From an uncultured Verrucomicrobiae bacterium (lineage in GTDB: Bacteria; Verrucomicrobiota; Verrucomicrobiia; Chthoniobacterales; JAFAMB01): a DNA stretch of 64,000 bases. Position 1 is the stretch's first letter; the number at the start of each line of letters is the position of its first letter. The stretch is taken from positions 608,001 through 672,000 of the forward strand of contig CAVXLD010000003.1 of assembly GCA_963762565.1 (NCBI GenBank), written 5' to 3'. The notes beneath the pieces were generated by a model. That model saw only the letters and a program-made list of their open reading frames with translations, had not been told where the DNA came from and ran no database searches. Positions 12,777 to 55,051 of this stretch are shown here, one piece after another. The position numbers and the translations under genes were made by a program.

Positions 12777-13068
12777 CCCAACGCCTGGAGGGGAGCCGCT
12801 TTGGCATGTCGCCCGTGACCTCGCGATATCTGGTTCAGTGCGCCGTCTGGCCAATCAATGTAGCAGCGGGCGGCTCCCGGGAATAACCCAGCGCGAGGCA
12901 TTTACCCAACGCTTTCTATGCGTTTACACCCGAACCATAGAGCTGCCACCCGATGGATCGTTCCCGGGAGCCGCTTGTTCTCACACGGTTCGGCTGGACT
13001 AACGATGAGAGGAAAGGCCGCGAGGGTGGAGAGATACACGCCAAAGCGGCTCCACTCCAGGCGTTGGG
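12777..13068 (+). repeat. Family A expanded-loop REP doublet, copy 1 (inside outer IR gaggcgcgaag/cttcgcgcctc at 12721-13100)
   Basis: GGAG-GGGAGCCGC[70]GCGGCTCCC[87]GGGAGCCGC[71]GCGGCTCCA-CTCC. Confidence 0.9.
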
Positions 13069-13168
13069 CCTCTCTAAACTCCTTCACCGCTTCGCGCCTC
13101 CATCTTGGTTGCGTCTCGCAACAATCGGGCTTTGAGTAAACCGGAGGGACGAAGAAGACACTTTTGCT

Positions 13169-14632
13169 ATGAATCCTATCGAAACTTTGAAAAAGCGGGA
13201 TCTTTTGCGGGAGCAATGTTTTGTCGGTGGTAGTTGGGTTAAAGGAAATAAGACTGTCGACGTCGAGGACAAGGCTTCAGGCGAACGGATTGCTGGGGTT
13301 CCGTATTTTGGAACCGAAGAGACTAAAGGGGCAATCGATCAGGCCCATCAGGCGCTGCCTGCCTGGCGCAAAAAGACTCCGGTTCAACGCTCGGTGTTGC
13401 TGAGAAAATGGTTCGACTTGATGACGGCCAACGCCGGCGATCTGGCCAAGCTAGCCACCGCGGAGAGCGGTAAGCCTTTGAAAGAATCGGAAGGAGAGGC
13501 GGCTTATGCGGCGGCTTATCTCGAGTGGTACGCGGAGGAAGCAAAACGCATCTACGGGGACGTGATTCCGAATGCGAATCCGGATCAGCGGATTGTTGTG
13601 ATTAAGCAAGGCGTCGGTGTCTGCGCGGCGATTACCCCCTGGAATTTTCCATTGGCCATGATCACTCGGAAGGCGGGGCCAGCACTGGCGGCCGGATGCA
13701 CCATCGTCATCAAGCCGGCTACCGAGACGCCCCTATGCGCCTTAGCTCTGGGCGTTTTGGCTGAAGAAGCCGGTTTTCCGCCGGGAACAGTGAATGTCCT
13801 GACTGGGGACGAGGTCGCCATCGGTAAAGAGCTAACCGGCAACCCGGATGTCCGCAAAGTCACCTTTACTGGGTCAACTCCGGTCGGAAAATTGATCGCG
13901 AAACAAAGCGCCGACACGCTGAAGAAAGTTACGATGGAGCTTGGTGGTAATGCGCCTTTCATTGTCTTCGCTGACGCGGACGTCGACAAAGCGGTGCAAG
14001 GCGCCATTGCGGCTAAGTACCGGAATGCCGGGCAAACCTGTATCTGCACGAACCGCTTCTTAATTCACAACAAGGTGTTTGATGAATTTACGGACAAATT
14101 TTCCAAGCAGGTTGCTAACTTAAAGGTAGGGAGCGGCTTCGAACCGGGTGTCGACATCGGGCCACTGATCAGCCGGGAAGCCGTCGATAAGACTCGGTCT
14201 TTTATCGCTGATGCGACCGAGAAAGGCGCTGAGGTCACCATCGGTGGTCGGCCTCACGGGCTGGGTGGATTGTTTTTTGAGCCAACTGTGATCACCAAAG
14301 CGACGCCCAAAATGCGCTTTTTCCAGGAAGAGATCTTTGGGCCGGTCGCGCCGCTCTATTCATTTGAAGATGAGAGCGAGGTAATCGACTTGGCCAACAG
14401 TACGCCCTACGGTTTAGCGAGCTATTTCTATGGCCGTGATATTGGCCGAGTCTGGCGCGTCGCTGAAGCTCTTGATTACGGCATGGTTGGCGTAAATACC
14501 GGACTGATCTCAAACGTGATGGCGCCCTTTGGCGGAGTAAAGGAATCCGGTTATGGCCGCGAAGGCTCGAAGTATGGTCTGGATGATTATATGGCCATAA
14601 AATATATCTGCCTGGCAGGGATAGAGTCGTAG
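13169..14632 (+). CDS. gabD: NAD(P)-dependent succinate-semialdehyde dehydrogenase
   Basis: ITPWNFP, FTGST, MELGGNAP, NAGQTCIC, EEIFGPV, PFGGVKESG. Confidence 0.92.
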   Translation: MNPIETLKKRDLLREQCFVGGSWVKGNKTVDVEDKASGERIAGVPYFGTEETKGAIDQAHQALPAWRKKTPVQRSVLLRKWFDLMTANAGDLAKLATAESGKPLKESEGEAAYAAAYLEWYAEEAKRIYGDVIPNANPDQRIVVIKQGVGVCAAITPWNFPLAMITRKAGPALAAGCTIVIKPATETPLCALALGVLAEEAGFPPGTVNVLTGDEVAIGKELTGNPDVRKVTFTGSTPVGKLIAKQSADTLKKVTMELGGNAPFIVFADADVDKAVQGAIAAKYRNAGQTCICTNRFLIHNKVFDEFTDKFSKQVANLKVGSGFEPGVDIGPLISREAVDKTRSFIADATEKGAEVTIGGRPHGLGGLFFEPTVITKATPKMRFFQEEIFGPVAPLYSFEDESEVIDLANSTPYGLASYFYGRDIGRVWRVAEALDYGMVGVNTGLISNVMAPFGGVKESGYGREGSKYGLDDYMAIKYICLAGIES

Positions 14633-14637
14633 GAACG

Positions 14638-14930
14638 CTTCGTCTCGCCCTCGTCGTCGTCCTTCCGACTTCGCCGGCTTCCTGGTTGTGGAGCGCGCCT
14701 CGCTTGCGAGGCCGACTTCGAGCGGTTGGCAACATAGCTCCCGGGCATAACTCAGCGCGAGGCAATTACTCAACGCTTTCGATGCGTTTACGCCCGACAC
14801 CAGGGAGTTGCTAACCGACGGGTCGATCCCGGGAGCCGCCTGTTCTCGCGCGTTTCGGCCGGACTGGTAATGAGACGAATGTTGCGAGGCTGGCGGGATA
14901 CACCAAAGCGGCTCCCCTCCAAGCCTTGGG
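14638..14930. repeat. Composite repeat: hexamer arm + Family D REP (14688-14714) + truncated Family A copy 2 (14737-14930)
   Basis: cgtctcgccctcgtcgtcgtcct; gtggagcgcgcctcgcttgcgaggccg; GCTCCC[88]GGGAGCCGC[68]GCGGCTCCC-CTCC. Confidence 0.85.
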
Positions 14931-14999
14931 TGTTCGTCCACGCAGAGCGTTCTCAAACGTTATCGTGTTGATGTAGCTCGCTGGCGAAAGGCCAATTAG

Positions 15000-15050
15000 C
15001 CTATAAGGCATATAGGCTCTAGAGACACTATAGGAGCCATACGTCCTATT
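15000..15050. repeat. Degenerate 9-mer tandem array
   Basis: cctataagg catataggc tctagagac actatagga gccatacgt cctat, period 9. Confidence 0.5.
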
Positions 15051-15200
15051 GTTAACCGTCGCAATCCGTCCTTCTCTTTCGTCGCCAAATTAGGTATTAG
15101 TTAATTCCGGCAAGTATATTGGTTAAGGAACGTCATCTCTAATGTTTGAACGCTAACCAGCGAACTTACCTGTAATAAGTACATTCAGAGGAGATCCAAG

Positions 15201-15800
15201 ATGGAAAATACGAGGCTCATCGAGCTGCGGAGGACCTACGACACGGAACTGGCTGCCGGTAGATACTCATGTGCTGAGCAAATCTGCTGGCAAGCAATCG
15301 AGATTTGCGGCTATCGCGGCGCGCGCCGGCACTTCAGTTGTTGGCTGGGTTCGGCGGGCTCGAAGGCAGCCCTGGGGGTAGAGGCAGTCTGGTTATGGGA
15401 GTGGGCCGGTCTATTGGCCGATATTTACTATGAACTAGGTCAGTATGCGGAAGCGGAACCGGTCTATGCCTGGTTGGCAGTGGCTTGGATGCGCTTGCCT
15501 CGGGAATTGAAAGGTCACGCCTCGGGAACGCGTGCTTTGCTGTCTGATCTGTTACGAAAGTTGGCGGGGACCGAAGCGTTTATCGGGAAAGAACAGCGGG
15601 CAGGAAAACATTGGGTGATGGCTAAAAGACTTTCTGGTAAATGGGCGGTGGTCTTGGCTCCGGAGAGAAACGGAACGAGTTTGGCGGTAGGCTCGCTTCC
15701 CAGTCGAGGCCGTGTAACGGATACACTGCGAGAGGGGTTTGGTCATGGTTTTAGCCGATGGCCGTCGCTCTCTAGACATCGCCGATTTCGCAGGAGCTAG
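15201..15800 (+). CDS. Hypothetical protein with a TPR-like segment
   Basis: GAGGAG RBS upstream; LADIYYELGQYAEAEPVY resembles a TPR. Confidence 0.55.
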   Translation: MENTRLIELRRTYDTELAAGRYSCAEQICWQAIEICGYRGARRHFSCWLGSAGSKAALGVEAVWLWEWAGLLADIYYELGQYAEAEPVYAWLAVAWMRLPRELKGHASGTRALLSDLLRKLAGTEAFIGKEQRAGKHWVMAKRLSGKWAVVLAPERNGTSLAVGSLPSRGRVTDTLREGFGHGFSRWPSLSRHRRFRRS

Positions 15801-15815
15801 GCCGAGCAGGCGATA

Positions 15816-17142: not shown

Positions 17143-20100
17143 CTACCCAAAATCATGCGAGCTGGGAGTCTCTAACGCGAAGGTAGGTAAACGTTCTATG
17201 TTCTTCGCGCGAACATGAATTACTCCCTGGCGACTTTGAAGGATGCCTTCCACTAATAAAAAGCTCTCTTGAGTGATAATCAGACGATAGCGTTCGAACA
17301 TATTAGGCGTAACGATCACGTTGCTAATGCCGGTTTCGTCTTCCAAGCTGATAAAAACAAAACCTTTTGCCGTGCCGGGTCGTTGCCTGCAGATGGCGAT
17401 ACCGGCAACTCGTAGCAAGGTCCCATTACTCGCTTGAGGTAAATCGATACTACGCCAGATGTTATCCGGTAAAGTGGACCTTAAACAGGCAAGAGGATGC
17501 TTACCCACGGTCAAACGCATGGTGGAATAATCAGCAGTTAGACGTTCTACTTGTTCCATTTGCGGCAAGGGATCGGACGGCTGATCCAAGTGAGTAAAAA
17601 GCTCTCCTTGATAGTATGGAGCTTCAACCAGCCAGAGAGCATGGCGTCGGTGGCTGGCTAAAGGATTGAGAGCGCCGGAAGTGGCTAAAACCCTTAGCTC
17701 GTCGCGATCAAAATAGGTTCGCTTCCTAAAATCAACGAGATCCCGGAACGGACGGCTTTGACGCTCATTGATCATGCGTTGAACGTTGGGGCTGCTAAGT
17801 CCCCGACTTAAACAAAAACCTAGCCGGATAGTTTTATCCGATATTACGGTACAGAACCAATCAGACTCTGTGACTGATACAGGTAGTACCCGAATTTGAT
17901 GTCTCTGGGCGTCCTTTATTAGAGTAGCCGGAGCATAAAAACCCATAGGTTGATTATTCAGCAAGCTGACATAGAACTCGGCTGGTCTATGTACCTTTAG
18001 CCAGGAACTAGCGTAAGCAATCAAAGCAAAACTGATGGCGTGTGATTCCGGGAATCCATAGAGTGCGAATGAAGAGATAGCGGCTAAGATCTTTTCAGAG
18101 ACTTCCTCACTCACCTGGTTATCAGTTAACGCATTCCGAAGCTTTTTGGCGACCCGTTGCATCCGTTCTTGGGATCGATGAAAGCTCAATGCCCGTCGTA
18201 ATTCCTCCGCTTCATTGCCGGTGAAGTTAGCCATTACCATGGCAATTTTGAGCATTTGTTCTTGAAAAAGAGGGACTCCCAAGGTTCGCTCTAGAACCGG
18301 GATTAACCGTTCATCTAAATAAGTGATTTCCTCCGTGCCTTCCCGCCTGGCTAAGTAAGGATGCATCAGATGACCTTGGATTGGTCCTGGCCGGATAATG
18401 GCCACTTCGATTACGAGATCGTAAAACCGACGAGGCTTCATCCGAGGCAGGGTTGCCATTTGCGCACGGCTTTCCACCTGGAACACTCCAACGGTATCAG
18501 CGGCGCAAAGCATATCATAGGTCTGCGGATCATCCTTTGGCAGTTTCGCTAGCTCAATGGGGTGACCGCGTTGAGAGCAAATTTCAATCGCGTCCTGTAA
18601 AGCCGCCATCATTCCCAGTCCGAGCAAATCGACTTTTACTATCCCGAGATCTTCGCAGTCTTCCTTGTCCCATTGGATCACGGTTCGATTGGGCATAGTG
18701 GCGTTCTCCAGTGGCACAATCGAATCCAAATGATTTTGAGAAATCACCATCCCACCTGAATGTTGGCCCAGATGACGAGGTAACCCCTGGATCATTTGAT
18801 AAGCATTCAGAAATGTGGGGACCCGAGGATTATTCAGGGATAGTCCTGATTGTCGAAGTTGTTCTCGAGCTTCTAAGGTGTGCGGAAAATCACCGCTATG
18901 ATGCAATCGGGAAAATCGATCCATGATATCTTCAGGTAAATTGAGCGCTTTACCAATCTCCCGCATGGAGCTGCGTCCTCGAAAACAGATGACATTGGCT
19001 GTCATGGCGGCTCCGAGTCTACTGTAACGCCGATAAACCTCTTGGATAACGCTTTCCCGCCGGTCACCACTGGGTAAATCCAGATCGATATCCGGCCACC
19101 CTTTTCTGCCTTCACTAAGAAATCGCTCGAATAATAGATGGTTACCGATGGGATCTACCGGAGTAATTCCTAAGCAAAAACAAACAGCGCTGTTGGCCGC
19201 ACTACCCCGACCTTGCACCATAATATTCTGACTCCGGCAAAACTGGATCAGATCCCAGACAATGAGGAAATAACCTGGGAACCCTAATTTATGAATTAAA
19301 GCCAGCTCTCGTTCGATCTGATTTCTAACTTTTTTCGTTATCTTTGGATAAAGCCGGCGGGCGCCGTCCCAGGTTGTCTGTTCAAGAAAGCTATCCATGG
19401 TTTCCCCGGGAGGAACAGAGTAACGGGGAAATTCATAACCAAGATTTTCCAAAGTAAACTCTACTTCCTTGGCGATAGCGGCAGTATTGGCAACTGCCTG
19501 AGGAAGGTCGCTGAAAAGAGCGCACATCATAGCCGCATTTTTTAAATGACGCTCGGTGTTAGGCTCCAATAGCTGGCCGGCAAGATCCAGGTGAGTATGA
19601 TTCAGCGCACAGGTAAATACATCCAAAGCGATCCGTTGATCCGGAGTCGCGTAAAGGACTCCATTTGTAGCGACTAGTTTTAAGTGATGTTTTTCGGCTA
19701 GCCGCAACAAATTTAGTTCGATCCAGGGTTCATCTCGTAGATGATGGCGTTGGATCTCGACAAATAAGTGATCGACATCAAAACAACGTTTCAGATCGGC
19801 TAAACTTTTATCTGCGCCGGCAAAATCACCGCTAGTCAAGGCTCGATGCAACGGCCCTTCCTGGTCGCCGGTCAGACAGACTAGACCTTCGCTAAATTCA
19901 GAGAGTTCAGCCCAATCTATCGCGCTCTCGTTTTTAGGCGATCGCAATTTTGCTCTCGATATCAGTCGGCAAAGATTTTGATAACCGATACGGGATTTTA
20001 CCAGGACTGGTAAAACCGTGCCGTCAGTCATGGTGAGCTCGCTTCCGACCAATGGCCTGATACCGGCTTCCTTAGCAGCTGTGTAGAATCGGGGTGCACC

Positions 20101-20232
20101 AAAGACCCCATCTCGGTCACACAACGCTAGAGCCGGCAATTCCTGTTCGGCAGCGAGGTAAGCGAGGTTTTCAGGAGAAGAACTACCTCGTAAAAAGCTG
20201 AATGCGCTGCGAGCATGTAGTTCGACGTACAT
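17143..20232 (-). CDS. dnaE2: Error-prone DNA polymerase DnaE2 (ImuC)
   Basis: PHP domain YVELHARSAFSFL, QGRGSAANS, PDIDLD, C-terminal SHDF motif; downstream of imuA-imuB. Confidence 0.96.
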   Translation of the reverse strand: MYVELHARSAFSFLRGSSSPENLAYLAAEQELPALALCDRDGVFGAPRFYTAAKEAGIRPLVGSELTMTDGTVLPVLVKSRIGYQNLCRLISRAKLRSPKNESAIDWAELSEFSEGLVCLTGDQEGPLHRALTSGDFAGADKSLADLKRCFDVDHLFVEIQRHHLRDEPWIELNLLRLAEKHHLKLVATNGVLYATPDQRIALDVFTCALNHTHLDLAGQLLEPNTERHLKNAAMMCALFSDLPQAVANTAAIAKEVEFTLENLGYEFPRYSVPPGETMDSFLEQTTWDGARRLYPKITKKVRNQIERELALIHKLGFPGYFLIVWDLIQFCRSQNIMVQGRGSAANSAVCFCLGITPVDPIGNHLLFERFLSEGRKGWPDIDLDLPSGDRRESVIQEVYRRYSRLGAAMTANVICFRGRSSMREIGKALNLPEDIMDRFSRLHHSGDFPHTLEAREQLRQSGLSLNNPRVPTFLNAYQMIQGLPRHLGQHSGGMVISQNHLDSIVPLENATMPNRTVIQWDKEDCEDLGIVKVDLLGLGMMAALQDAIEICSQRGHPIELAKLPKDDPQTYDMLCAADTVGVFQVESRAQMATLPRMKPRRFYDLVIEVAIIRPGPIQGHLMHPYLARREGTEEITYLDERLIPVLERTLGVPLFQEQMLKIAMVMANFTGNEAEELRRALSFHRSQERMQRVAKKLRNALTDNQVSEEVSEKILAAISSFALYGFPESHAISFALIAYASSWLKVHRPAEFYVSLLNNQPMGFYAPATLIKDAQRHQIRVLPVSVTESDWFCTVISDKTIRLGFCLSRGLSSPNVQRMINERQSRPFRDLVDFRKRTYFDRDELRVLATSGALNPLASHRRHALWLVEAPYYQGELFTHLDQPSDPLPQMEQVERLTADYSTMRLTVGKHPLACLRSTLPDNIWRSIDLPQASNGTLLRVAGIAICRQRPGTAKGFVFISLEDETGISNVIVTPNMFERYRLIITQESFLLVEGILQSRQGVIHVRAKNIERLPTFALETPSSHDFG

Positions 20233-20239
20233 GGGAGAG

Positions 20240-20417
20240 AGGAGCTAGGAGCTAGAATCTAGGAGCTAGGAGAGGTCGACAGACATTGGTTCGCTCGGAG
20301 TCAATAACACATAGGTCCCATGTGTCCCATAAGTCCCATTTCAGCCACCCCTTAAAAACTTCTCTCAAGAAACCGCTTGTTTCTCCCAACGGCCGCTCCT
20401 CCTAGCTCCTAGCTCCT
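20240..20417. repeat. Inverted GGAGCTA heptamer arms enclosing a 9-mer array (20310-20339)
   Basis: ggagctaggagctagaatctaggagctagg ... cctagctcctagctcct; inner cataggtcc catgtgtcc cataagtcc. Confidence 0.88.
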
Positions 20418-20420
20418 TTT

Positions 20421-21950
20421 TCAGTCGTATCCCCCCGTGATAGACCAGGAGCCGGCTGATAACGTCAATCGATAGAGTCCACCTTGCGCCAGCTCGATAT
20501 CCCATTCCTGGATCTCCCAACGATTGGTATCCCACCAATCACCGGAGGAATGCCAGGGACCAGACAGGTTATTGATTTTGCCGTTTACTGATGGGCTTTG
20601 GATCCTGACTGGTCGCCCTGAGATAAGTTCGACCATAGCCGGGATCGGCGGACGATAACGACGCAAAGCAGGGCCGACTCTTGGCGGTTTAATCTTGGTA
20701 GAAGTTTTATCCATCCAATCGAATGCTGGCAATTGCATACGGACGCTATCCGGTCGATGAGTAGCGATCTTTTCTGGGATTCCCACTCGATTATTGCCAA
20801 CTAAAGCGGCTAATCGCGCGAGCGTGTTAAAGAAGCGGTTAGGATCTTTTAGCCCGCTCTGAAATAGATCGAATTGATGTTTCCCAGGGTTACTAGCGAA
20901 TACTTCTAAGACAAATCCTACTACCGGTGCAGTGGTTTGCACGGTCTCTAAATATTGGGTCAGAACCCGGAATAGGACCGTTATGTCGCGAGTGGGTGCT
21001 GGTATTTGCAGAGAACGTTCCAGGGTATCTCCATTATCCAATAACAGTTGTAACCTGATCTCTGCTACTAGCCGGTAAACCGCCTCCACTCGTAAAGTGA
21101 GATGCTCCAAAGAACGTCTCAGAATGAAAAGCAGTGGTTCCAGCGTCTCCAGCCGCTGATCCAGATCGATCGCTTCCCTAAAAGTTTCCGGAGGATGCAT
21201 ATGATGGAGCACCTTGGTGGAACGACCCGTTGCTCGATCCCAAAGCGCTAACCCCTCCAGACCTAGACGCACCCCAATATCTTCTCTAGGTAAGCGTACT
21301 AGCTCGCCTAAGGTCCCGATTCCCCAGTTATGTAAAATATCTAAAAGCTCATGAGAGGGCTCAAGTGATTCCAGGGGAAGAGACCGAAGTAATTGGCTAT
21401 CGGCGTTAACTGCTAAATAAGGGTTAGCGAATTTGGCGGCTTGCTCCGTCAGTTCCGGGTTAGGGCCAATTCCGATTTGCGCGGTAAAACCTAGAATTCT
21501 CCAGTTAGCCAAAAGTTCGCGAGCCCACCATTCATGATGCTGATCTTTACGGCCGCGTAAATCGAGCGTGCAGACACCGGGAGCAGTATTTTCGATAAAA
21601 GGTGAATATCGATAGCAAAGTTGCAGTAACGCTTCTTGTTGCTGGTTTTCTTGTTCAATAGCCGGGGCATAAAGTTGCAACTCGGGTGCTCTGGCTAGAG
21701 CTAAGCTGGGAGTAATCCCAATGCTCACCCCAGCCGCATCAGCTATCGGATTGATTTCGATAATCTGCGAATCATTGAGTAAAGCGGACGGGATTTTATC
21801 CCCCGACTTTGGAATTGTCGCCTGCTCGCCAAATAAAGAGAGATTGGTTTGTCGATTGGATTCGATTTCGGCGTTAAGCAGCCTTTGTTGGGCGCATTGC
21901 AGCCGAAAATAAGGAGTATGCACAACAGCAAACAATTTAGGCTTGGGCAT
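20421..21950 (-). CDS. imuB: Y-family polymerase-like ImuB
   Basis: Y-family fold, QFDLF clamp-type motif, C-terminal GPW..SGDWW...GLYRL...GGYD; start uncertain (21950 or 21935). Confidence 0.88.
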   Translation of the reverse strand: MPKPKLFAVVHTPYFRLQCAQQRLLNAEIESNRQTNLSLFGEQATIPKSGDKIPSALLNDSQIIEINPIADAAGVSIGITPSLALARAPELQLYAPAIEQENQQQEALLQLCYRYSPFIENTAPGVCTLDLRGRKDQHHEWWARELLANWRILGFTAQIGIGPNPELTEQAAKFANPYLAVNADSQLLRSLPLESLEPSHELLDILHNWGIGTLGELVRLPREDIGVRLGLEGLALWDRATGRSTKVLHHMHPPETFREAIDLDQRLETLEPLLFILRRSLEHLTLRVEAVYRLVAEIRLQLLLDNGDTLERSLQIPAPTRDITVLFRVLTQYLETVQTTAPVVGFVLEVFASNPGKHQFDLFQSGLKDPNRFFNTLARLAALVGNNRVGIPEKIATHRPDSVRMQLPAFDWMDKTSTKIKPPRVGPALRRYRPPIPAMVELISGRPVRIQSPSVNGKINNLSGPWHSSGDWWDTNRWEIQEWDIELAQGGLYRLTLSAGSWSITGGYD

Positions 21951-22581
21951 ATTGAGGCTCCAGGTGATGGTTTTTTCGGTAAATGAAATCAATTAGCCGG
22001 CTCTGTGAGATCGTGGACGATAGTTCAGCGAAATCAGCGATTTGGAGAGGGTTATTGATCTGCAATGCGGCTATTGAGCTGCCGGAGATGTAGTAGCTAG
22101 TGACGAGCAACAGCGTTGTGCCGATCTCGGCTGTAACCCGTTGTAACCGGTACCAAGCAGTGGCCGGTACTTTCCTTAACTCGCGTGCCTCGTTCTGTTT
22201 TAAATCCAGGATACTAAGAACGATGTTGCCATCTCGGATGATTAAATCAGCGGCTCGAATTGCCTGAGAAACATTTTTGCATCGTATCCATAGCAAAAGA
22301 TTCGTTGCGTCGAGTGGCTCAAAACTGTTTTTGCCGTCGATTAAAGCCACAAACTGGGAAGAGGCTTGCATGGATTCGATGAGATCATGCAAGAGAGCTG
22401 CACTTCCACAGCTGGGGAGGGGAGCGACTAATTGAGTGATCGCCCCCCGTCGCAGGCCTCCATCTAAAGGCCGATCCAAGCAATCAATCCCGGTAGATAA
22501 GAGGGAAGAAGGAGGGGGCAATTCCCTGGGGTAGCGTTCATCCAGGATCTGTCGAAGTTCAATAATCTTACCGGACGGCAT
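21937..22581 (-). CDS. imuA: ImuA-like (RecA-related) protein
   Basis: STGIDCLDRPLDGGLRRGAITQL RecA-like N-terminus with degenerate Walker A; first gene of the mutasome cassette. Confidence 0.82.
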   Translation of the reverse strand: MPSGKIIELRQILDERYPRELPPPSSLLSTGIDCLDRPLDGGLRRGAITQLVAPLPSCGSAALLHDLIESMQASSQFVALIDGKNSFEPLDATNLLLWIRCKNVSQAIRAADLIIRDGNIVLSILDLKQNEARELRKVPATAWYRLQRVTAEIGTTLLLVTSYYISGSSIAALQINNPLQIADFAELSSTISQSRLIDFIYRKNHHLEPQYAQA

Positions 22582-22635: not shown

Positions 22636-23131
22636 GGGAGGCGGAAGGTGATTAGTGATTGGTGATTGGTGGGGGCGGGAGAGGTGAAAGATGATTGGTG
22701 GGAGCTGTGCACTATTTGGTGGGGCAAGGCTCCCGAAAGGTTGAATGTAACCCAACGCTCGGAGGGGAGCCGCTTTGGCATTTAGCAGGCGACCTCGCTA
22801 TATTTGGTTCAGAGCTCTTCTGGCCAATGAATGTCGCAACAGGCGGCTCCCGGGAATAACCCAGCGAGACGCATGTACCCAGCGCCTCCGATCTGATTGC
22901 ACCCGGACTGCAGAGCTGCGAACCGATGGGTAGTTCCCGGGAGCCGCCTGTTTTCGCACCTCTCGGCCGGACTAATGATGAAACGAAAGTTGCGAGGGTG
23001 GCGAGAGACACGCCAAAGCGGCTCCCCTCCGGGCGCCGGGCTACGAGATCTTTCGGGAGCTTCGCCCCACAAAGAGGGCGACAGCCCACCAATCACCAAT
23101 CACCAATCACTAATCACCCCTCACGCCTCCC
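22636..23131. repeat. Three-layer nested element: GTGATTG heptamer arms > Family B outer arms > Family A copy 3 (22751-23040)
   Basis: A core GGAG-GGGAGCCGC[69]GCGGCTCCC[87]GGGAGCCGC[70]GCGGCTCCC-CTCC; B arms 22716-22738/23051-23072; heptamer arms 22647-22700/23087-23118. Confidence 0.9.
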
Positions 23132-24878: not shown

Positions 24879-24950
24879 GGTGAGCGGTGGTTTATGAGAG
24901 GTGAATTGTCAGAGGTAAAAAGTGATTGGTGAGAGGTGATTGGTGACTGG
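24879..24950. repeat. One-sided GGTGA(nn) heptamer array, about 10 units
   Basis: ggtgagc ggtggtt tatgaga ggtgaat tgtcaga ggtaaaa agtgatt ggtgaga ggtgatt ggtgact. Confidence 0.75.
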
Positions 24951-24959
24951 GAGGCCACG

Positions 24960-25291
24960 AGTCGCCCTGGGTTGGTATGCCCGATTTTTCGGTTGGACTC
25001 GCGGTGAAGTGATCGACTTGGGACCGCGCCAGGGTTCACATCAGATGTTCGCGTGGGATGAATCTGGAAAGATCGGCGGAAGCATGACGGACTCGGCTCG
25101 GCTGCCCGGTATCCACGCGCAATGGCTATTTTTCTTCCCGGTTTCAGAAATCGAAATGTCTCTAGCCAGAGTTCGCGCCCTTGGCGGCAGCACATTGGAG
25201 CCAATGCAAACCGCGCGCCGTGATTGGGTTGCGGTGCAATGATCCGCAAGGTGCTGCTTTCGCGATTTACCAGTTCAGCCCCGGCGATTAG
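24960..25291 (+). pseudogene. VOC/glyoxalase family gene remnant (C-terminal half, frameshifted)
   Basis: WYARFFGW...WLFFFPV..IE.SLARVRALGG, then NDPQGAAFAIYQ in another frame; no N-terminal half or native start. Confidence 0.7.
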
Positions 25292-26397: not shown

Positions 26398-26794
26398 CGT
26401 CGTCGTCCTTGTCCTCGAAAAGGTTGCCAGGCCGGTAGGGTGTTTGTTCCCAGCGCCTGGAGGGGAGCCGCTTTGGCGCGTATCCGGCCAGCCTCGCGAT
26501 ATTTTCCTTAGCGTTAGCCCGATCTGAACGTGTGAAAAACAGGCGGCTCCCGGGAACGATCCAACGGTTTGCAGCGTAATCAGCCAGGTCGATACGAATG
26601 GGGGGGCCAACAGGGGTAAATGCACCATGCTGGGTTATTCCCGGGAGCCGCCTGTTGAATACATTCTTTGGTGAGATTGCGCGCTAAAGCAAATATCGCG
26701 AGGTCGTGAGATGACGCCCCAAAGCGGCTCCCCTCCAGGCGGTGGGAAAAAGCACGCCATCATCCTAGCAACCTTTTCGAGAACGAGAACGAAG
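26398..26794. repeat. Hexamer-arm IR enclosing Family A copy 4 (26449-26746, reverse orientation)
   Basis: gtcctcgaaaaggttgccagg / cctagcaaccttttcgagaac arms; A core loops 71, 91, 72 nt. Confidence 0.88.
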
Positions 26795-27999: not shown

Positions 28000-28247
28000 T
28001 TGGTAGGCTGTCGCCTCTTATCGTGGAGCGAGGCTCGCGAAAGGTTCAACGTAACCCAACGCTCGGAGGGGAGCCGCTTTGGCGTTTAGCAGGCGACCTC
28101 GCGATATTTGGTTCAGAGCTCTTCTGGCCAATGAATGTCGCAACAGGCGGCTCCCCTCCGGGCGTCGGGGTACCAGATCATTCCGAAGCCTGACCCCAAC
28201 AATAGGGCCGCGGCCCTACCAATCACCAATTACTAATCACCAATCAC
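27963..28247. repeat. Nested element, sibling of 22636-23131, with an internally deleted Family A copy 5 (28055-28170)
   Basis: GTGATTG arms, degenerate B arms; loop 1 differs from copy 3 at only 2 of 69 nt. Confidence 0.88.
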
Positions 28248-31088: not shown

Positions 31089-31177
31089 GTGAGAGGTGAG
31101 AAGAGAGGGGGAGAGGTGAGGGGAGAAGGGTGAAAAGTGATTAGTGATTAGTGATTGGTGAGAGGTGATTGGTGATT
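31089..31177. repeat. One-sided GTGA(nnn) heptamer array, about 12 units
   Basis: gtgagag gtgagaa ... gtgatta gtgatta gtgattg gtgagag gtgattg. Confidence 0.8.
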
Positions 31178-31194
31178 CGTGGCGGCTGCTCCAT

Positions 31195-41699: not shown

Positions 41700-44021
41700 A
41701 TGGAGGATGTCGCCGATGCTGTCTTTGGATCCTGGTCGATCCAATTCTGGCCGACGATTGGACTGATATTCCTCGCGCTGATTTATTTTCGTGGCTGGCT
41801 AAAGCTGCGGAAACAGGTTCCTCACCGGTTCGACGGATGGCGCCTCGCGTCGTTTCTCGGAGGCGTTGGCACTGTCTTTCTGGCACTGGATTCGCCACTG
41901 GATACCTTCTCGAATCTTCTGCTCCAGGTGCACATGATCCAGCACCTCCTGCTGATGATGATCGCACCGCCACTTTTTTTGCTGGCGAACCCGTTTTTGC
42001 CGCTATTAATCGGGCTTCCGCGTCCGGTTGTTCGCGAGTGGATTCGTCCGTTTCTGCTCTGGACGGCATGCAAGAAGTTGGGGCGATGGTTAACCCACCC
42101 GAAGGTCACATGGATCCTCTTTGTGGTGATGACTTTGGGCTGGCATGCTCCTCCGCTGTATGAGCTGACTTTACGCTCACCAACCTGGCACATGGTTGAG
42201 CACGCCTGTTTCCTGGGATCGGGTGTCCTCTTTTGGTGGCCTGTGGTTCTGCCTTGGCCCAGCCGTCCGCAATGGCCGGAATGGGCCGTCATCCCGTACC
42301 TTCTACTTGCCGACGTTGCAAACACTGTTTTGTCAGCTTTCTTGACTCTTTCCGATCGGGTCCTCTATCCGACTTACAGCCTCGTTCCTCAGTTCCCGGG
42401 CATGAACCCACTAAGCGATCAGCATGCCGCTGGCGCGATCATGTGGGTGCCGGGCTCCATCATTTATCTCATCCCTGCCGGCATCCTGGCGATGCGATTT
42501 CTTTCTCCAAGGCGCCAGATCCCCAGGCGGCTAACTCCGGTCGGAAATCTGGCGCTAACGTCCAGCGGACGCGGGACGAAGCCGATCCTTGGTGCAAGCA
42601 GAGCGGCGTCATCTAAGACCAAAGGAGTTGATCTCCTCGCATTGCGTTGGGTAGGGCGATTGATCCGGTCGCTCGCATTTCGACGGGTTCTTCAGTGCGT
42701 TCTTTTTGGCTTAGCCATATTCATTGTGGTCGACGGACTCTTTGGGCCGCAGATCGGTCCAATGAATCTGGCCGGGACATTACCCTGGACGCATTGGCGA
42801 GGCCTTAGCGTCTTAGCTCTGCTCGTGATCGGGAACTTCTTTTGTTTTGCTTGTCCATTCACCTTTGCTCGCGATCTTGCCCGGCGCATCCTGCCGGGGA
42901 ACCGGCAATGGCCAAGATGGCTACGCACGAAGTGGATCTCGGTTGCATTGCTCGGCATTTACCTCTGGTCTTACGAAGCCTTTAGCTTGTGGAATAGTCC
43001 ATGGCTCACGGCTTGGGTCATCATCGGATATTTTGTGGCGGCCATCGTTGTGGATGGATTTTTCCGCGGCGCCAGTTTCTGCAAATACGTCTGTCCGATT
43101 GGCCAATTTCACTTTGTGCAGTCGCTGGTTTCACCGTTCGAAGTGAAGACGCGCGATGTGGATGTCTGTCGCAGCTGTAAGTCGTTTGATTGCATTAAAG
43201 GAAATGAGCAACAACGCGGCTGCGAATTACGGCTGTTTCAACCAAAGAAAGAAAGCAATTTAGATTGTACCTTCTGCCTGGATTGCGTGCGCGCATGTCC
43301 GCATGACAATATCGGGATCATCGCAGTAACACCAGGCCGTACGTTAGTCCGGGACCAGTTTCGTTCATCAATTGGCCGGTTTGCTCAAAGAACCGATTTG
43401 GCGGTTCTGGTACTGGTTCTCGTTTTTGGCGCGTTCCTCAACGCTGCTTCGATGACTTTACCGGTCGAAAACGCCCTGAGCTTTTCTCGTCTGACGCTCG
43501 ATCTGATTCCGCGCCCGGTTATTCTTTTCATCTTCTTCGCCCTGGCGCTCGGATTATTGCCGTTGGTCGCTGTCACCGGTTGCGCATTCGTCAGCCGGCG
43601 GTTCGGCGCTATCACTACATCTTGGCGGGCAATCACATGCCGGTTTGCCATGACCTTCGCGCCGCTGGGTTGCGCCATGTGGTTAGCCCATTTTGGGTTT
43701 CATCTTTTCACTGCTCTACTGACGCCGATTCCAGTCATTCGACGGGTTTTTCTAGACCTTCATATCGCTACAACCGGCTCGCCGTGGTGGAGTCTGCGCA
43801 TGCCCGCGATCCCGCAGTTGCTGGATTTTCAATGCCTGGCATTGGATCTCGGGCTACTGGCTAGTTTGTATTTTGCCTGGAAAGTTTCGCGCGCCTTAGT
43901 GGCAGCGAACCGAAAAGCGCTGGGTGCTTTTTTGCCCTGGGGCGTTCTACTTACTTCGCTTTATCTCTGCGGGATTTGGATCGTCTTTCAGCCGATGGAA
44001 ATGCGGGGAATGCTGCATTGA
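41700..44021 (+). CDS. Caa3-type CtaG copper assembly domain fused to a membrane 4Fe-4S (CcoG/NapH-like) domain
   Basis: VHMIQHLLL and HMVEH in the N-half; CFACP, CKYVCP, CRSC...C, CTFCLDCVRACP in the C-half. Confidence 0.8.
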   Translation: MEDVADAVFGSWSIQFWPTIGLIFLALIYFRGWLKLRKQVPHRFDGWRLASFLGGVGTVFLALDSPLDTFSNLLLQVHMIQHLLLMMIAPPLFLLANPFLPLLIGLPRPVVREWIRPFLLWTACKKLGRWLTHPKVTWILFVVMTLGWHAPPLYELTLRSPTWHMVEHACFLGSGVLFWWPVVLPWPSRPQWPEWAVIPYLLLADVANTVLSAFLTLSDRVLYPTYSLVPQFPGMNPLSDQHAAGAIMWVPGSIIYLIPAGILAMRFLSPRRQIPRRLTPVGNLALTSSGRGTKPILGASRAASSKTKGVDLLALRWVGRLIRSLAFRRVLQCVLFGLAIFIVVDGLFGPQIGPMNLAGTLPWTHWRGLSVLALLVIGNFFCFACPFTFARDLARRILPGNRQWPRWLRTKWISVALLGIYLWSYEAFSLWNSPWLTAWVIIGYFVAAIVVDGFFRGASFCKYVCPIGQFHFVQSLVSPFEVKTRDVDVCRSCKSFDCIKGNEQQRGCELRLFQPKKESNLDCTFCLDCVRACPHDNIGIIAVTPGRTLVRDQFRSSIGRFAQRTDLAVLVLVLVFGAFLNAASMTLPVENALSFSRLTLDLIPRPVILFIFFALALGLLPLVAVTGCAFVSRRFGAITTSWRAITCRFAMTFAPLGCAMWLAHFGFHLFTALLTPIPVIRRVFLDLHIATTGSPWWSLRMPAIPQLLDFQCLALDLGLLASLYFAWKVSRALVAANRKALGAFLPWGVLLTSLYLCGIWIVFQPMEMRGMLH

Positions 44022-44171
44022 ATGACAAATGGCAAATGACGGATGACAAATTCGTTCGGCTCTGCCGAAACAGATTGCTCTTCGAAATGGACTCCCAAGA
44101 CACGGAACGCGGTGCTTCGTGCGGACCGCTGAATTGGTCATCTGTCATCTGTCATTTGTCATTTGTCATTC
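44020..44171. repeat. Inverted TGACAAA heptamer arrays
   Basis: gaatgacaaatggcaaatgacggatgacaaa ... tcatctgtcatctgtcatttgtcatttgtcattc. Confidence 0.9.
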
Positions 44172-44716
44172 TTTTGATCTCGCTGTGTTTGGCGGGTAAT
44201 GCGTTCGGGGATGGGGGCTCGGTGCAGCTGCATTCGGTGAGCGGTCCGTTCGAGATCACGCTTTTTACTGAACCGCCTTTGCCAAGAGCGGGTCAGATCG
44301 ATTTTAGTGTTTTGATCCAAGACGCGAAGAGCGGGCAGCCAGTGATGGATGCGACGGTGATGTTAGCGCTTACGCCGGCGCGGGTTCATCAAAATTCGCA
44401 ACCGGCCTGGTATCCGCCCAGTTGCGTGGTCAGTCAGCCGGCGAATTTAGCAGCCGTGCCGCTTCTCCATTCCGGAGCATCGAATCGTCTGCTTTACGGT
44501 GCACTCGTAGAAATACCGGCTGCCGGAGTTTGGCAGGCGCGAGCTTCGGTTCAACGGGGTGATGAACATGCGAGCGTTGAGGGAAACGTGGATGTGGCCG
44601 ATCCCTTCCCGCCAGTCGCTAATTATTGGCCCTTGTTTCTTTTTCCGGTTGTGGCCATCGGACTTTATGTTTTGCGTGGGCACATACTTGGTGGGGCGAG
44701 GCTCCCGAATGGCTGA
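44036..44716 (+). CDS. Exported, membrane-anchored hypothetical protein (possibly FixH/YtkA-like beta fold)
   Basis: signal-like ...LCLAGNAFG|DGG, beta-rich core, C-terminal TM; start uncertain (44036 or 44087, both inside a repeat). Confidence 0.6.
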   Translation: MTDDKFVRLCRNRLLFEMDSQDTERGASCGPLNWSSVICHLSFVILLISLCLAGNAFGDGGSVQLHSVSGPFEITLFTEPPLPRAGQIDFSVLIQDAKSGQPVMDATVMLALTPARVHQNSQPAWYPPSCVVSQPANLAAVPLLHSGASNRLLYGALVEIPAAGVWQARASVQRGDEHASVEGNVDVADPFPPVANYWPLFLFPVVAIGLYVLRGHILGGARLPNG

Positions 44717-44923
44717 GAAAATCGACAGGGCAAATCGGCTTCGTATAGATACCGTGAACAGCACCGATTCGCTGCCGAGCCGATCCCAGCGCCTGGCATC
44801 GCGAAGAAGGTGGCAAACCCTGGGCTCGGCTCGGCAGGTAAGTCGGTGCTGCTTACGATGTCTTCAGGAAGCCGATTTGCCTTGTTCGATTTTATCGGCC
44901 ATTCCGGAGCCTCGCCCCACCAA
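44688..44923. repeat. Family B element, almost fully self-complementary
   Basis: GGCTC[72]GAGCC ... GGCTC[74]GAGCC; arms pair over most of their length. Confidence 0.92.
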
Positions 44924-46329: not shown

Positions 46330-46333
46330 AAGC

Positions 46334-47969: not shown

Positions 47970-47973
47970 AGCG

Positions 47974-48183
47974 TGGTAGGGCGAGGCTCCGGAATAGCCA
48001 AACCGGAATCGCAGGGCAAAATGACGATTCGCTGGTATATCGAACGCACCGTCTAGGAGCTGCCGAGCCGTGCGTCGCGCAACCCACGGCTCGGCAGTTT
48101 TCATGTGTTGCATCTCATATAGCAGCGGAGTTCGCCTTTCCCTTGCGATTCCTGTTTGGCTATTCCGGAGCCTCGCCCTACCA
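47974..48183. repeat. Family B element (GTAG variant)
   Basis: tggtagggcgaggctccggaatagccaaac ... gtttggctattccggagcctcgccctacca; loops 75 and 75 nt. Confidence 0.9.
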
Positions 48184-48233
48184 ACCCCACTTGCAACCCG
48201 CTCCGATCTGCCGATCGTGGATACGTTACCTCT

Positions 48234-51290: not shown

Positions 51291-51298
51291 TTCAACTT

Positions 51299-52150: not shown

Positions 52151-52157
52151 CGATCCA

Positions 52158-52259
52158 AGATGGCAGATGACAGATTACAAATGACAAATACCGAGCCTTC
52201 CTCGAGGTACGCGTAAAGAGCGAGTCATTTGGCATCTGTCATTTGTGATCTGTCATTCT
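52158..52259. repeat. Inverted TGACARA heptamer arrays
   Basis: agatggcagatgacagattacaaatgacaaat ... atttggcatctgtcatttgtgatctgtcattct. Confidence 0.88.
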
Positions 52260-52265
52260 AAATGT

Positions 52266-53036
52266 ATGAGGGCGCTGATTTTTGATTGTGACGGAGTGCT
52301 CGCCGACACCGAGCGTCATGGCCACCTGGTTGCGTTCAATCGTATGTGGGAAAAGGCGGGGGTTCCCTGGCGCTGGCATGAGGAACAATATGCTGAAAAG
52401 TTAAAGATTGGCGGCGGCAAAGAGCGCATGCGGGCGCTATTCAGTGAGCCGGCATTTCAGGCGGTCTACCGAGTCCCGAAAGATGAGGCGGCCCAGAAAG
52501 AACTCTTGGCCCAGTGGCATGGGCAAAAGACCGCACTTTATCAGGAGATCATTGCTTCAGGAAGCGTTCCCGGGCGGACGGGAGTCAAACGCCTAGCGGA
52601 GGAGGCATTGGCTGCGGGCTGGTCGCTGGCGGTAGCATCAACCTCGGCGAAACCTTCAGTTGAAGCAGTACTTCGGTTCACTGTTGGCGATACTGTGGCC
52701 TCGCAGTTCAAAGTCTTTGCCGGGGATATTGTCCCAAAGAAAAAGCCGGCTCCGGATATCTATCAGTATGCGTTACGCGAAGTGGGCGTTCCGGCAGATG
52801 GCAGTATAGCGATCGAAGACTCACGTAACGGTTTGTTGGCCGCCGCCGCCGCCGGTATTCGAACCGTGATCACCACAAGTTATTTTACTTGTACTGAGAA
52901 CTTCGACGAGGCGGTGTTAGTGCTCGATTCGTTGGGTGAGCCCGAAGGGAAACCTTGTACGGTTCTGGCGAACCGGACTGGGCGCCGGGTCGGGCCGTTT
53001 CTGAAAGCCAGCGATCTGGACGCGATCATTGGGTGA
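52266..53036 (+). CDS. HAD-IA hydrolase, CbbY-like sugar-phosphate phosphatase
   Basis: FDCDGVLADTERHGH, GGGKERM, KKPAPDIY, IEDS. Confidence 0.88.
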   Translation: MRALIFDCDGVLADTERHGHLVAFNRMWEKAGVPWRWHEEQYAEKLKIGGGKERMRALFSEPAFQAVYRVPKDEAAQKELLAQWHGQKTALYQEIIASGSVPGRTGVKRLAEEALAAGWSLAVASTSAKPSVEAVLRFTVGDTVASQFKVFAGDIVPKKKPAPDIYQYALREVGVPADGSIAIEDSRNGLLAAAAAGIRTVITTSYFTCTENFDEAVLVLDSLGEPEGKPCTVLANRTGRRVGPFLKASDLDAIIG

Positions 53037-53075
53037 CGGTAGGGCGCTTTGCGAAGTCGGGTTTTCGCCCTACCG
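53037..53075. repeat. Family C palindrome between convergent genes
   Basis: cggtagggcg-ctttgcgaagtcgggtttt-cgccctaccg. Confidence 0.85.
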
Positions 53076-53079
53076 GAGC

Positions 53080-54675
53080 CTACCGCCGTTTCACCTTGGC
53101 CAACACTTTGTTAAACAGCGCCCAAGCCTCCGGTACCCGGAACGCGAGTGTTCCGCATAGGTAGAGCGCCCCGTACCAGGGCAACAAAACGATTCCCGCT
53201 ACAAGCGGGTGTCCGGTGAAGAAATGTTTTAAGGGAAAGACGATAGCAGCCGCTAACAGCGCCGAGGCCCATAGACGAGTGGCTAAGCCGGGCGGTAAGG
53301 AGAAATGATCTACCCTTTTTCTGAGAGTGTGGCGCAACAACAAGAACTCGATCCAACCGGCGATACCCGCGGAGGCAGTGAGGCCCGCTAGCCCGAGCTT
53401 GGGATCGAGATGCAACAACTTCGGCAGAGGAAACGCAAAAAGGTAGCCGAGAATAACCGTGAGCACGACTCGTACAGTCGCGAACTTCAGAGGTGTTCGC
53501 GTATCGCGCAGGGCGTAAAAGGTTGAAGAACAAAGCCGGCCGAAGGTCGACGCCAGCAAGCCAACGCCGGAGCCGGCCAGCAACGCCCAGAGATAAAGGA
53601 CATCCTGATGCGTGAAGAGGCCAGTCTGATAGATCACCGCTCCAATGGTGTCACCCAAAGCCAAGAAAGCGGCGGAAGAAGGGATCACAAAAAACGCCAT
53701 CCGGCGCAGGGCAGCGTTTAACCGTTCCGCTAGCGTGCGGCGCAAGTCCTGTTCATCGCTGCCAATAGCGCGAGACATTGCGGGAAGCTCGGCGGCGGAA
53801 ATCGACATCCCGAATAGGCTGATCGGCAACAACGCGATGGTTTGTCCGTTCGTTAAAAGAGCAACCGACCCTGAAGGCAGAAGGCTGGCCAGAAGGTTGT
53901 CGATATAAGCGCTGAGCTGCACAACCCCGCGGCTGATAAACACCGGCCCGAAGCTAGTAAAAACAGTACGGACTTGTTGAGAAGCAAGGTCTAGGGAGAA
54001 ACGAATCCGGCGAGTAACCCGGAAGACCGTGGGTAATTGGACCCCGAGCTGCCCGAAGCAACCTGCGACCGAACCCCAGGCGACCCAAATCGTGAGCTGA
54101 GACAGGGTAGGGACGTCGTGGAAGATCAGGAGCGCCGCAATGATCATGACGTTCCAAACAACCGGCGCCGTGTACGACAGAAAAAAATGACCGTGACTAT
54201 TTAGAATCCCCAGGCACCAGGCGGACAGGACTAGGGCGCCAATCCCAGGAAACATGATGCGAACCAGGGTGACGGTAAGCTCTCTTTTCGCACCGACAAA
54301 ACCGGGAGCGATGGCTTCGATCAGGAATGGCGCCAAAAGGATCCCGAGTAGAACCAAAGTCGAGGTCAGCAGCGCGAGGATAGACCCAATGACACTCGCA
54401 ACTTGATCCGCCTCTTTCTCATCTTTCGCGCCGAGCAGGCGGGCGTAAACCGGGATGAACGATGCCGATAACACCCCTTCACCGAAAAGATTCTGCAGAA
54501 AGTTAGGGATCCGCAACGCTGCGTTAAAGGCATCCGCGGCGTCGGAAATACCCAGGTAGTGGGCAAGCGCGCGCCCGCGGACGAGACCAAGAATCCGGCT
54601 GAGCAAGATTCCCGTGGCAATGAGCACTGCCGGCCGTCCGGAAGGCCTTTCGGTCTTCGCGGCATCTACGGACAT
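53080..54675 (-). CDS. murJ: Lipid II flippase MurJ (MviN)
   Basis: LSRILGLVR, DAFNAALRIPN...FGEG, FYALRDTRTP; many TM helices. Confidence 0.93.
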   Translation of the reverse strand: MSVDAAKTERPSGRPAVLIATGILLSRILGLVRGRALAHYLGISDAADAFNAALRIPNFLQNLFGEGVLSASFIPVYARLLGAKDEKEADQVASVIGSILALLTSTLVLLGILLAPFLIEAIAPGFVGAKRELTVTLVRIMFPGIGALVLSAWCLGILNSHGHFFLSYTAPVVWNVMIIAALLIFHDVPTLSQLTIWVAWGSVAGCFGQLGVQLPTVFRVTRRIRFSLDLASQQVRTVFTSFGPVFISRGVVQLSAYIDNLLASLLPSGSVALLTNGQTIALLPISLFGMSISAAELPAMSRAIGSDEQDLRRTLAERLNAALRRMAFFVIPSSAAFLALGDTIGAVIYQTGLFTHQDVLYLWALLAGSGVGLLASTFGRLCSSTFYALRDTRTPLKFATVRVVLTVILGYLFAFPLPKLLHLDPKLGLAGLTASAGIAGWIEFLLLRHTLRKRVDHFSLPPGLATRLWASALLAAAIVFPLKHFFTGHPLVAGIVLLPWYGALYLCGTLAFRVPEAWALFNKVLAKVKRR

Positions 54676-54690
54676 ATTTGGACCGTAACG

Positions 54691-55051
54691 GGATATCGGC
54701 GTGTGGGCGTATTGGCGTACACGCTCCCGACATAAGGGAGGAGTTCAAGGAGTTCAAGGAGCGCTTGGAGGGGAGCCGCTTTGGGACCTGCCTCCACGAC
54801 CCGCAAAACTTGTTCCGCAAAGCGCCGAAACCGGAGACCGTGAAAGCAGGCGGCTCCCGCGAATTACCCAGGGTTGTGCTTTTCAGGCGTGTGCTCTGCT
54901 CAGGCCCGATGAGTTGCAGGTGCGCCACCGAGGTGCCAAACGTTGGGTTATTCCCGGGAGCCGCCTGTTTACTGTATTTTGCGACTTCACCCACGCAGCC
55001 AGAAATTTTGCCAGGGCGGCAGGTCCACGGGCCAAAGCGGCTCCCCTCCAA
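54691..55051. repeat. Octamer array + AAGGAGTTC 9-mer array + Family A copy 6 (54761-55051, reverse orientation)
   Basis: A core loops 70, 97, 72 nt. Confidence 0.88.

What the first reader, a model, noticed from the sequence alone, without database searches (positions are those of the whole stretch)
12777..55051. Family A: ~290-bp four-arm palindromic element with fixed-length, variable-sequence ~70-nt loops (6 copies)
Seen: six copies (12777-13068, 14737-14930 partial, 22751-23040, 26449-26746, 28055-28170 deleted, 54761-55051) share GGAG-GGGAGCCGC-[loop]-GCGGCTCCC-[centre]-GGGAGCCGC-[loop]-GCGGCTCCC-CTCC. Loops measure 68-72 nt in every copy and centres 87-97 nt, although loop sequences diverge strongly. 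Pairing between the two loops is kept with different sequences: cctcgcgatattt/aaatatcgcgagg in copy 4, gacctgcc/ggcaggtc in copy 6. The termini also covary (cctggag/ctccagg vs cttggag/ctccaa). The four 9-bp arms alternate in orientation, so two folds are possible: one long rod, or two 70-nt-loop hairpins. Known: REPs are short hairpins with a 5' GTAG/GGAG guide tetramer, recognised by HUH Y1 RAYT/TnpA-REP enzymes, and inverted doublets form REPINs; REP loops are normally only a few nt. Inference: this is a non-autonomous mobile element or structured RNA in which the REP loop is expanded to a constrained length. I do not recognise it as a described family. No cognate enzyme is encoded in the window.
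Basis: partly seen in the sequence, partly recalled or inferred. Interest (0 to 1): 0.82.

Follow-up and report, generated by a model that had tools for sequence, protein, structure and literature searches.

The report
Giant-loop REP repeats with fixed length
These are copies of a familiar kind of bacterial hairpin repeat (REP), likely spread by a transposase gene that the same repeats flank elsewhere in this genome; what is unusual is that the 2-base hairpin tip has been widened to about 35 or 70 freely drifting bases whose length stays almost fixed, likely because a protein measures it.

Summary
The six copies are real. They belong to a genus-wide family (389 exact heads in this genome; 160-355 in five relatives) of head-out REP dimers (REPINs). 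A cognate RAYT, absent from the window, lies at G000:C1:579808-580266, flanked by the same units. Loops are not always ~70 nt: classes are 34-36, 57-58 (34 plus an inserted hairpin) and 68-73. A neighbouring genus has the same arms closing a 2-nt loop, and long-loop RAYTs form one clade nested among TT-loop RAYTs, so the loop is an expanded REP tip. Loops are unstructured and about as diverged as 4-fold sites, yet at equal divergence only 1 of 62 loop indels is 2 nt or more, against 20 of 59 in centres. The claimed loop-to-loop covariation fails a permutation test (0.505 vs 0.502). Sites are empty, filled or class-switched in relatives. No Rfam match; expression untested. Verdict: new variant of REP/REPIN-RAYT. 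What sets the length is open; a match to SSB footprints (35; 65-68) is my untested lead. The scan noted this family before on other DNA of this genome.

The parts
12787..13058 (.). Copy 1, head-out dimer: GGAG 12787-90, arm 12791-99, loop 70, arm 12870-78, centre 87, arm 12966-74, loop 71, arm 13046-54 (one mismatch), CTCC 13055-58
12707..13108 (.). The 402-bp stretch that holds copy 1 and its flanks and is cleanly absent in G002, G003 and G005; no target duplication beyond one ambiguous T
14737..14920 (-). Copy 2, partial: truncated inner arm 14737-42, centre 88, arm 14831-39, loop 68, arm 14908-16, CTCC; absent in G002, G003, G004
22761..23030 (.). Copy 3, dimer (loops 69/70, centre 87), nested in a palindrome of another repeat family; same gene gap empty of family A in G002, a long+short dimer in G003, another long+long dimer in G005
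26459..26736 (.). Copy 4, dimer (loops 71/72, centre 91) between tdh and ruvC; present at the same site in G002, G003, G005 with near-identical arms and same-side loops 54-69% identical to those of the window
28065..28159 (+). Copy 5, single unit with GGAG and CTCC ends (centre and second unit lost); 95% identical over 133 nt, flank included, to the left end of copy 3; absent in G002, G003, G005
54767..55049 (.). Copy 6, dimer (loops 70/72, centre 97) between murJ and a dedA-like gene, 2 nt from that gene's stop codon; present in G002, G005 and, degenerate, in G004

Best explanation
The element is a head-out dimer of REP units (GGAG, a 9-bp arm, a 34-, 57- or 70-nt unstructured loop, the complementary arm) that is likely copied as a whole by the RAYT which the same units flank elsewhere in the genome, and whose loop length is likely held by a protein that binds the folded single strand. 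Shown: anatomy, three loop classes, the flanked RAYT gene, descent from a 2-nt-loop REP, whole-dimer copies, empty and swapped sites, near-neutral loop divergence, depletion of multi-base indels in loops. Inferred: on single-stranded DNA each unit closes its own stem across the long loop; RAYT binds the GGAG foot, nicks at the pyrimidine pair just 5' of GGAG and joins strands, giving new insertions and in-place replacement; the more stable full rod is likely the inactive fold; the long loop likely began as an insert at the TT tip that then decayed. The ruler acts per unit and on absolute length; RAYT itself or the SSB tetramer are the candidates.
For: RAYT L012 has HUH, WQ and Y..NP motifs, passes NCBIfam NF047646 (89.4 bits, cut-off 80), best PDB match 4ER8 (E 6.7e-8), and is flanked head-out by three 34-nt-loop units. 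Orthologues in G002, G003, G004 (71-74% identical) are flanked by 34-35-nt units, that of G001 (68%) by four 71-73-nt units. 322 of 385 units are in head-out dimers. Classes pair assortatively among 160 dimers: long-long 83 (50 expected), short-short 51 (22.5), long-short 10 (67); nearest-neighbour dimers are alike in both loops and centre. In G012, 20 of 22 units seen in the fetched loci have the same arms and tail with a 2-nt loop and 2 have 63/66-nt inserts after TT. Twelve long-loop RAYTs form one branch (96/90) inside two successive TT-loop groups (tree of 61 of 116 proteins). Within-unit pairing: a sister family changes both arms at two positions; at C6:40258 both arms of one unit changed together while the partner unit kept consensus arms. 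Base -1 before GGAG is always C or T, dinucleotide CT in 212 and CC in 38 of 320 ends. Of 102 element-bearing syntenic gaps 68 are filled in one genome only; 18 of 59 matched units differ in class. A soil contig about 98.6% identical in the neighbouring gene has 64 other letters in place of 12720-13048. Indels of 2 nt or more: 1 of 62 in loops, 20 of 59 in centres at 83% identity each (p 1e-6).
Against: No binding, cleavage or transposition was assayed. The RAYT of this genome is flanked by 34-nt, not 70-nt, units; no RAYT flanked by 70-nt family-A units was found in G000 (94% complete), so the mover of the window's copies is L012 by cross-use, an unassembled gene or a lost one. G005, with 228 long units, yielded only the sister-family RAYT. 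Predicted energy favours the rod over two hairpins in 136 of 136 dimers by about 25-28 kcal/mol. Direct within-unit compensation rests on 2 family-A units, and a third unit with both arms changed does not re-pair. A floppy loop has no obvious reason to reject a 2-5 nt change. Centre indels are not independent events (7 are 5-nt). The tetranucleotide is GGAG, not the GT[AG]G of the tested RAYTs. Arms kept almost intact at old shared sites could reflect host selection instead of replacement.
Confidence: 0.8

Rival explanations
1. Host-kept sites: the arms are inverted binding sites for a host protein or RNA signal, and each copy is kept in place for the host's benefit; RAYT only seeded them long ago.
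For: At shared sites arms are near-invariant while 4-fold sites are only 52-56% identical; older copies show inherited loops (orthologous identity 0.64 where the best match within G000 is 0.75 or less).
Against: 68 of 102 element-bearing gaps are filled in one genome only; arm spacings of about 43, 66 and 79 bp are not in one helical phase; where a G000 loop has a twin of 90% or more elsewhere in G000, its 'orthologue' is at the random level (0.54 vs 0.53; n = 7), which fits replacement.
Confidence: 0.1
2. Structured non-coding RNA (or DNA rod) in which the two loops pair, length being fixed by the need for a symmetric rod.
For: Rod is the predicted minimum-energy fold (copy 4, z -11.5; 136 of 136 dimers); classes pair assortatively; short-short dimers show a small excess of loop likeness (0.702 vs 0.665); flanks covary.
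Against: No loop-loop covariation in long dimers; the two loop lengths in one dimer are uncorrelated (rho -0.03, n = 82), 45 of 46 unpaired long units and 11 of 11 long units in mixed dimers stay at 67-73 nt; no Rfam match; loops fold no better than shuffles with DNA parameters and only slightly better with RNA ones (mean z -0.3).
Confidence: 0.06
3. Loops are captured or hypermutated cargo (spacers or guides) written by the RAYT.
For: Mean pairwise identity of 70-nt loops in the genome is 0.49; loops swap class in place.
Against: All loops share one consensus and have close relatives in the genome (median nearest neighbour 0.79-0.81); orthologous loop cores are 58% identical, not below 4-fold sites (52-56%), with the same transition share (0.45 vs 0.44-0.46). 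Loops were not searched against phage or plasmid collections.
Confidence: 0.03

Closest known systems
REPINs and RAYTs of Pseudomonas fluorescens SBW25 (PMC3116915 and PMC3337134, passages read)
   Same: Inverted REP doublet as replicating unit, extragenic, tied to a RAYT flanked by the same repeats; spacers vary in sequence but cluster at set lengths; rod versus two-hairpin ('clover') folds already proposed there.
   Different: There the variable, length-clustered part lies between two short REPs and forms a hairpin; here it lies inside each REP, is 34-70 nt and has no fold of its own.
E. coli REP/BIME and TnpA-REP, PDB 4ER8 (PMC3333891 and PMC8266576, passages read)
   Same: HUH Y1 enzyme, tetranucleotide at the stem foot, CT as cleavage word, strand exchange between repeats, tandem arrays next to the gene.
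   Different: E. coli REPs are 29-37 nt in all and need GTAG; here the foot is GGAG and the unit is 56-92 nt.
GTAG families and HH dimers (Di Nocera 2013, PMC3733652; passages and section 14 read) and TnpA-Y1 class 2 (Quentin 2018, PMC6006769; abstract, passages, sections 12 and part of 15 read)
   Same: Head-out dimers with 20-100 bp spacers, some of like length and unlike sequence; 'double foot' forms like copy 5; class-2 Y..NP motif.
   Different: Largest loops in those texts are 9-15 nt (unpaired) or up to 27 nt (self-complementary); the search rule allows 2-5 nt loops, so these elements would be missed. Figures and supplements with the family lists were not seen.

Membership tests
REP (canonical) | Conserved tetranucleotide 0-2 nt 5' of a GC-rich stem | tested here: met
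   GGAG directly before the arm in 389 of 844 exact arms, i.e. the outer arms; it is GGAG, not the GT[AG]G of PMC6006769
REP (canonical) | Short hairpin with a 2-5 nt loop, or a second stem behind a bulge | tested here: not met
   Loops of 34-36, 57-58, 68-73 nt, unstructured; met only by the G012 relative
REPIN-RAYT system | RAYT gene flanked by the same repeats | tested here: met
   L012 and orthologues L030-L033, L196
REPIN-RAYT system | Enzyme is a class-2 TnpA-Y1 (HUH, WQ, Y..NP) | tested here: met
REPIN-RAYT system | Inverted doublet is the unit that spreads | tested here: met
   322 of 385 units in head-out dimers, assortative classes, whole-dimer near-twins
REPIN-RAYT system | Extragenic, dispersed, present or absent among relatives | tested here: met
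   Six window copies lie between genes (not checked genome-wide); 68 of 102 gaps filled in one genome only
REPIN-RAYT system | Spacer keeps hairpin pairing by compensatory change | tested here: inconclusive
   Rod favoured by energy and flanks covary, but loops and centre halves do not
REPIN-RAYT system | RAYT binds and cuts the single-stranded repeat | not testable with these tools
   Only the CT/CC bias before GGAG
MITE of a DDE transposon | Target-site duplication at fixed ends | tested here: not met
   The one clean junction (copy 1) shows none, and the inserted stretch reaches 80 and 50 nt beyond the GGAG/CTCC ends; most other gaps were too diverged to judge
Rfam RNA family | Match at gathering score | tested here: not met
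   0 matches in the 64-kb window

The most novel reading that the evidence does not exclude
The loop is a docking site sized for the host's single-strand binding protein: 34-35 nt equals the SSB35 footprint and 69-71 nt just holds one fully wrapped tetramer, which brings the two ends of about 68 nt together (PMC4872115). SSB would then close the REP stem instead of melting it and present it to RAYT, a mobile repeat using SSB as a ruler and folding chaperone. It would also explain scan notes (unchecked) of 69-72-nt REP loops in unrelated phyla.
Probability: 0.2. Interest if true: 0.78.

Novelty: new variant of a known kind. Interest (0 to 1): 0.52.

Why it matters
Published REP searches allow loops of a few bases, so families like this one (hundreds of copies per genome in a soil lineage) are invisible to them. 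The family offers a natural series, the same arms with 2-, 34-, 57- and 70-nt loops and matching RAYTs, to ask what a RAYT really recognises and how REPINs replace one another at a site. A sequence-free but length-locked single-stranded loop is not explained by current models of REP recognition and can be tested directly.

Tried and rejected
Loop-loop covariation: rejected by two permutation tests. Rod symmetry as cause of the length: rejected. Hypermutation of loops: rejected against 4-fold sites. Folded loops: z near 0 on 70 sampled loops per class. Mutual information within loops gave adjacent-column and subfamily signals, no helix. Double-strand helical phasing: spacings do not share a phase. 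Polarity against GC skew: none (22/19/19/16 in 76 polar dimers). Length change in element-free gaps as a neutral control was too noisy to use. Junction mapping: 22 of 68 one-sided gaps were printed; only copy 1 gave a clean boundary. Viral contigs: no relative of the RAYT. The automatic REP finder on RAYT loci was noisy and gave no call for many loci; by eye, 21 doubtful loci showed ordinary short-loop dimers except the two of this clade, so I have no independent case of ~70-nt loops. Literature searches found no description of this family or of REP loops this long; subscription papers, figures and supplements were not seen.
Full report
Observation. All six copies are present with the stated anatomy: GGAG, a 9-bp arm, a loop of 68-72 nt, the complementary arm, a centre of 87-97 nt, and the mirror image. 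Copy 2 lacks its left unit; copy 5 is one unit with both end tetranucleotides. All lie between ordinary genes. Rfam gives no match in the window.

Genome-wide anatomy. The 6.1-Mb genome has 389 exact heads (reversed control 0). Allowing one mismatch, 419 heads were found, 394 with a partner arm: 138 with loops of 34-36 nt, 19 of 57-58, 219 of 68-73, 18 others, none at 61-66. The 57 class is the 34 class plus a 23-nt hairpin insert. All five other genomes of the genus carry both main classes (long 30-266, short 12-86, intermediate 1-10 copies). Outside the genus only G012 has many heads (25, 41 genomes searched).

The enzyme. Twelve Y1_Tnp matches lie in the genome, none in the window. One, L012 (C1:579808-580266), is flanked head-out by family-A units with 34-nt loops, passes the NCBIfam RAYT model and matches E. 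coli TnpA-REP. Orthologues in G002-G004 are flanked by 34-35-nt units and that of G001 by 71-73-nt units; a paralogous clade (frameshifted in G000) is flanked by a sister family with two compensated arm changes and 67-71-nt loops. No RAYT with 70-nt family-A flanks was found in G000 itself.

Origin. In G012, 20 of 22 units in the fetched loci have the same head, arms and tail but a 2-nt loop; two carry 63- and 66-nt inserts after the TT. In a tree of 61 of 116 RAYT proteins (chosen by me to include all close ones and a sample of the rest), the 12 long-loop RAYTs form one branch (96/90) nested within two TT-loop groups (midpoint root). The long loop is thus a derived expansion of an ordinary REP tip, probably by insertion (inference).

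Which fold matters. Energy favours the full rod in 136 of 136 dimers (copy 4), as reported for REPINs, where the weaker two-hairpin fold was proposed to be the RAYT substrate (PMC3116915, passages). But the rod shows no element-specific covariation in the long loops (0.505 vs 0.502; common words 6.5 vs 6.6); short dimers show a small excess (0.702 vs 0.665), centre halves a deficit (0.41 vs 0.45). Pairing within a unit is supported by descent from the TT hairpin, by the sister family, and by a dimer in which both arms of one unit changed together; of 5 units with both arms changed, all changed at mirrored positions and 4 re-pair, two of these being sister-family members.

Sequence free, length fixed. 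Loops fold no better than shuffles. In 35 long-long pairs at syntenic sites identity is 0.60 (permuted 0.53) and lengths differ by at most 4; loop cores are 58% identical against 52-56% for 4-fold sites, so loops drift at about the neutral rate. In 45 related dimer pairs, loops and centres are equally diverged (83%) and have the same rate of 1-nt indels, but indels of 2 nt or more are 1 of 62 in loops and 20 of 59 in centres (centre events are not all independent). The constraint is per unit: lengths in one dimer are uncorrelated, and unpaired units keep 67-73 nt in 45 of 46 cases. A few loop positions stay conserved (C21 92%, T31 96% of 95 70-nt loops; CT at 18-19 in 103 of 111 34-nt loops).

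Mobility. Copies 1, 2 and 5 are absent in three relatives each, copies 4 and 6 present, copy 3 varies. Of 275 syntenic gaps examined, 102 hold an element: 34 in both genomes, 47 in the relative only, 21 in G000 only; the regions were partly chosen for having elements in the relative. Eighteen of 59 matched units differ in class, some at what looks like the same junction. G000 loops with a recent twin in G000 match their 'orthologue' only at random level, older ones better (rho -0.37, p 0.03, pairs not independent), which fits a mix of inheritance and replacement. In G003 the two loops of copy 4 are 82% alike, suggesting conversion. One soil contig close to this genome replaces 329 nt of copy 1 by 64 letters, while two other studies keep at least its left end. 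Dimers spread whole: classes pair assortatively and near-twins are alike throughout. Ends are preceded by CT or CC in 250 of 320 cases, the words that a GGAG guide would select under the model in PMC8266576 (passages; my extrapolation). Elements often sit in the middle of other families' palindromes.

Mechanism. Most likely (0.8): a RAYT-driven REPIN whose REP loop is widened, with binding and nicking at the GGAG foot on single-stranded DNA, strand transfer as shown for E. coli TnpA-REP (PMC3333891, passages), and a protein ruler on loop length. The ruler is not identified. E. coli SSB covers 35, 56 or 65 nt and brings the ends of a 68-mer together (PMC4872115, passages); the genome has one ordinary SSB gene. 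The match to 34-35 and 69-71 is suggestive only: SSB is not known to demand single-base precision (own knowledge), and I found no independent long-loop family among my loci.

Novelty. It works like a REPIN-RAYT system and meets its testable features, but fails the short-loop rule of canonical REPs: a new variant. Searches found no paper on it; figures and supplements listing REP families were not seen. Earlier scan notes describe the same family elsewhere in this genome and similar loops in other genomes (unchecked except where tested here).

Noticed in passing
window 14690-14712 and genome-wide: A second abundant GGAG-tagged REP (GCCTCGC-TT-GCGAGGC, about 440 copies of its 12-mers) abuts copy 2; its RAYT was seen in G003 and G004 (L040, L041) but not in the tblastn of G000.
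   Followed up: partly
window 22719-22740, 23047-23073, 28023-28045, 28176-28202; also 8066-8281, 44687-44923, 47972-48184: Another long palindromic family (GGGCGAGGCTCCCGAAAG ends) encloses copies 3 and 5; relatives have it at the copy-5 site with other contents.
   Followed up: partly
G000:C4:78543-78985 (L010): Frameshifted RAYT paralogue flanked by a sister family with arms GGGCGTYGC and 67-71-nt loops; 19 heads in the genome.
   Followed up: yes
window 12729-12752 and the 57-nt loop class: A 22-23-nt hairpin (CCGAAAG..TTCGG type) inserted into short loops and into the left flank of copy 1; also next to RAYT L196.
   Followed up: partly
window, many intergenic gaps (e.g. 22650-22700, 24880-24960, 31100-31190, 44020-44170, 62411-62534): Inverted arrays of 7-9-nt words (GTGATTG, GACAAAT, GCAAATA, GGCGTATC and others), several families.
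   Followed up: no
window 17143-22581: imuA-imuB-dnaE2-like mutagenesis cassette (ImuA-like and error-prone polymerase hits) next to copy 3.
   Followed up: no
L001-L005: Five IS200-like Y1 genes of G000 flanked by their own long imperfect palindromes.
   Followed up: no
L243, L246 (G012): Independent 63- and 66-nt inserts with CCGAC/GTCGG ends right after the TT tip of the short REP, a likely model for how long loops start.
   Followed up: partly
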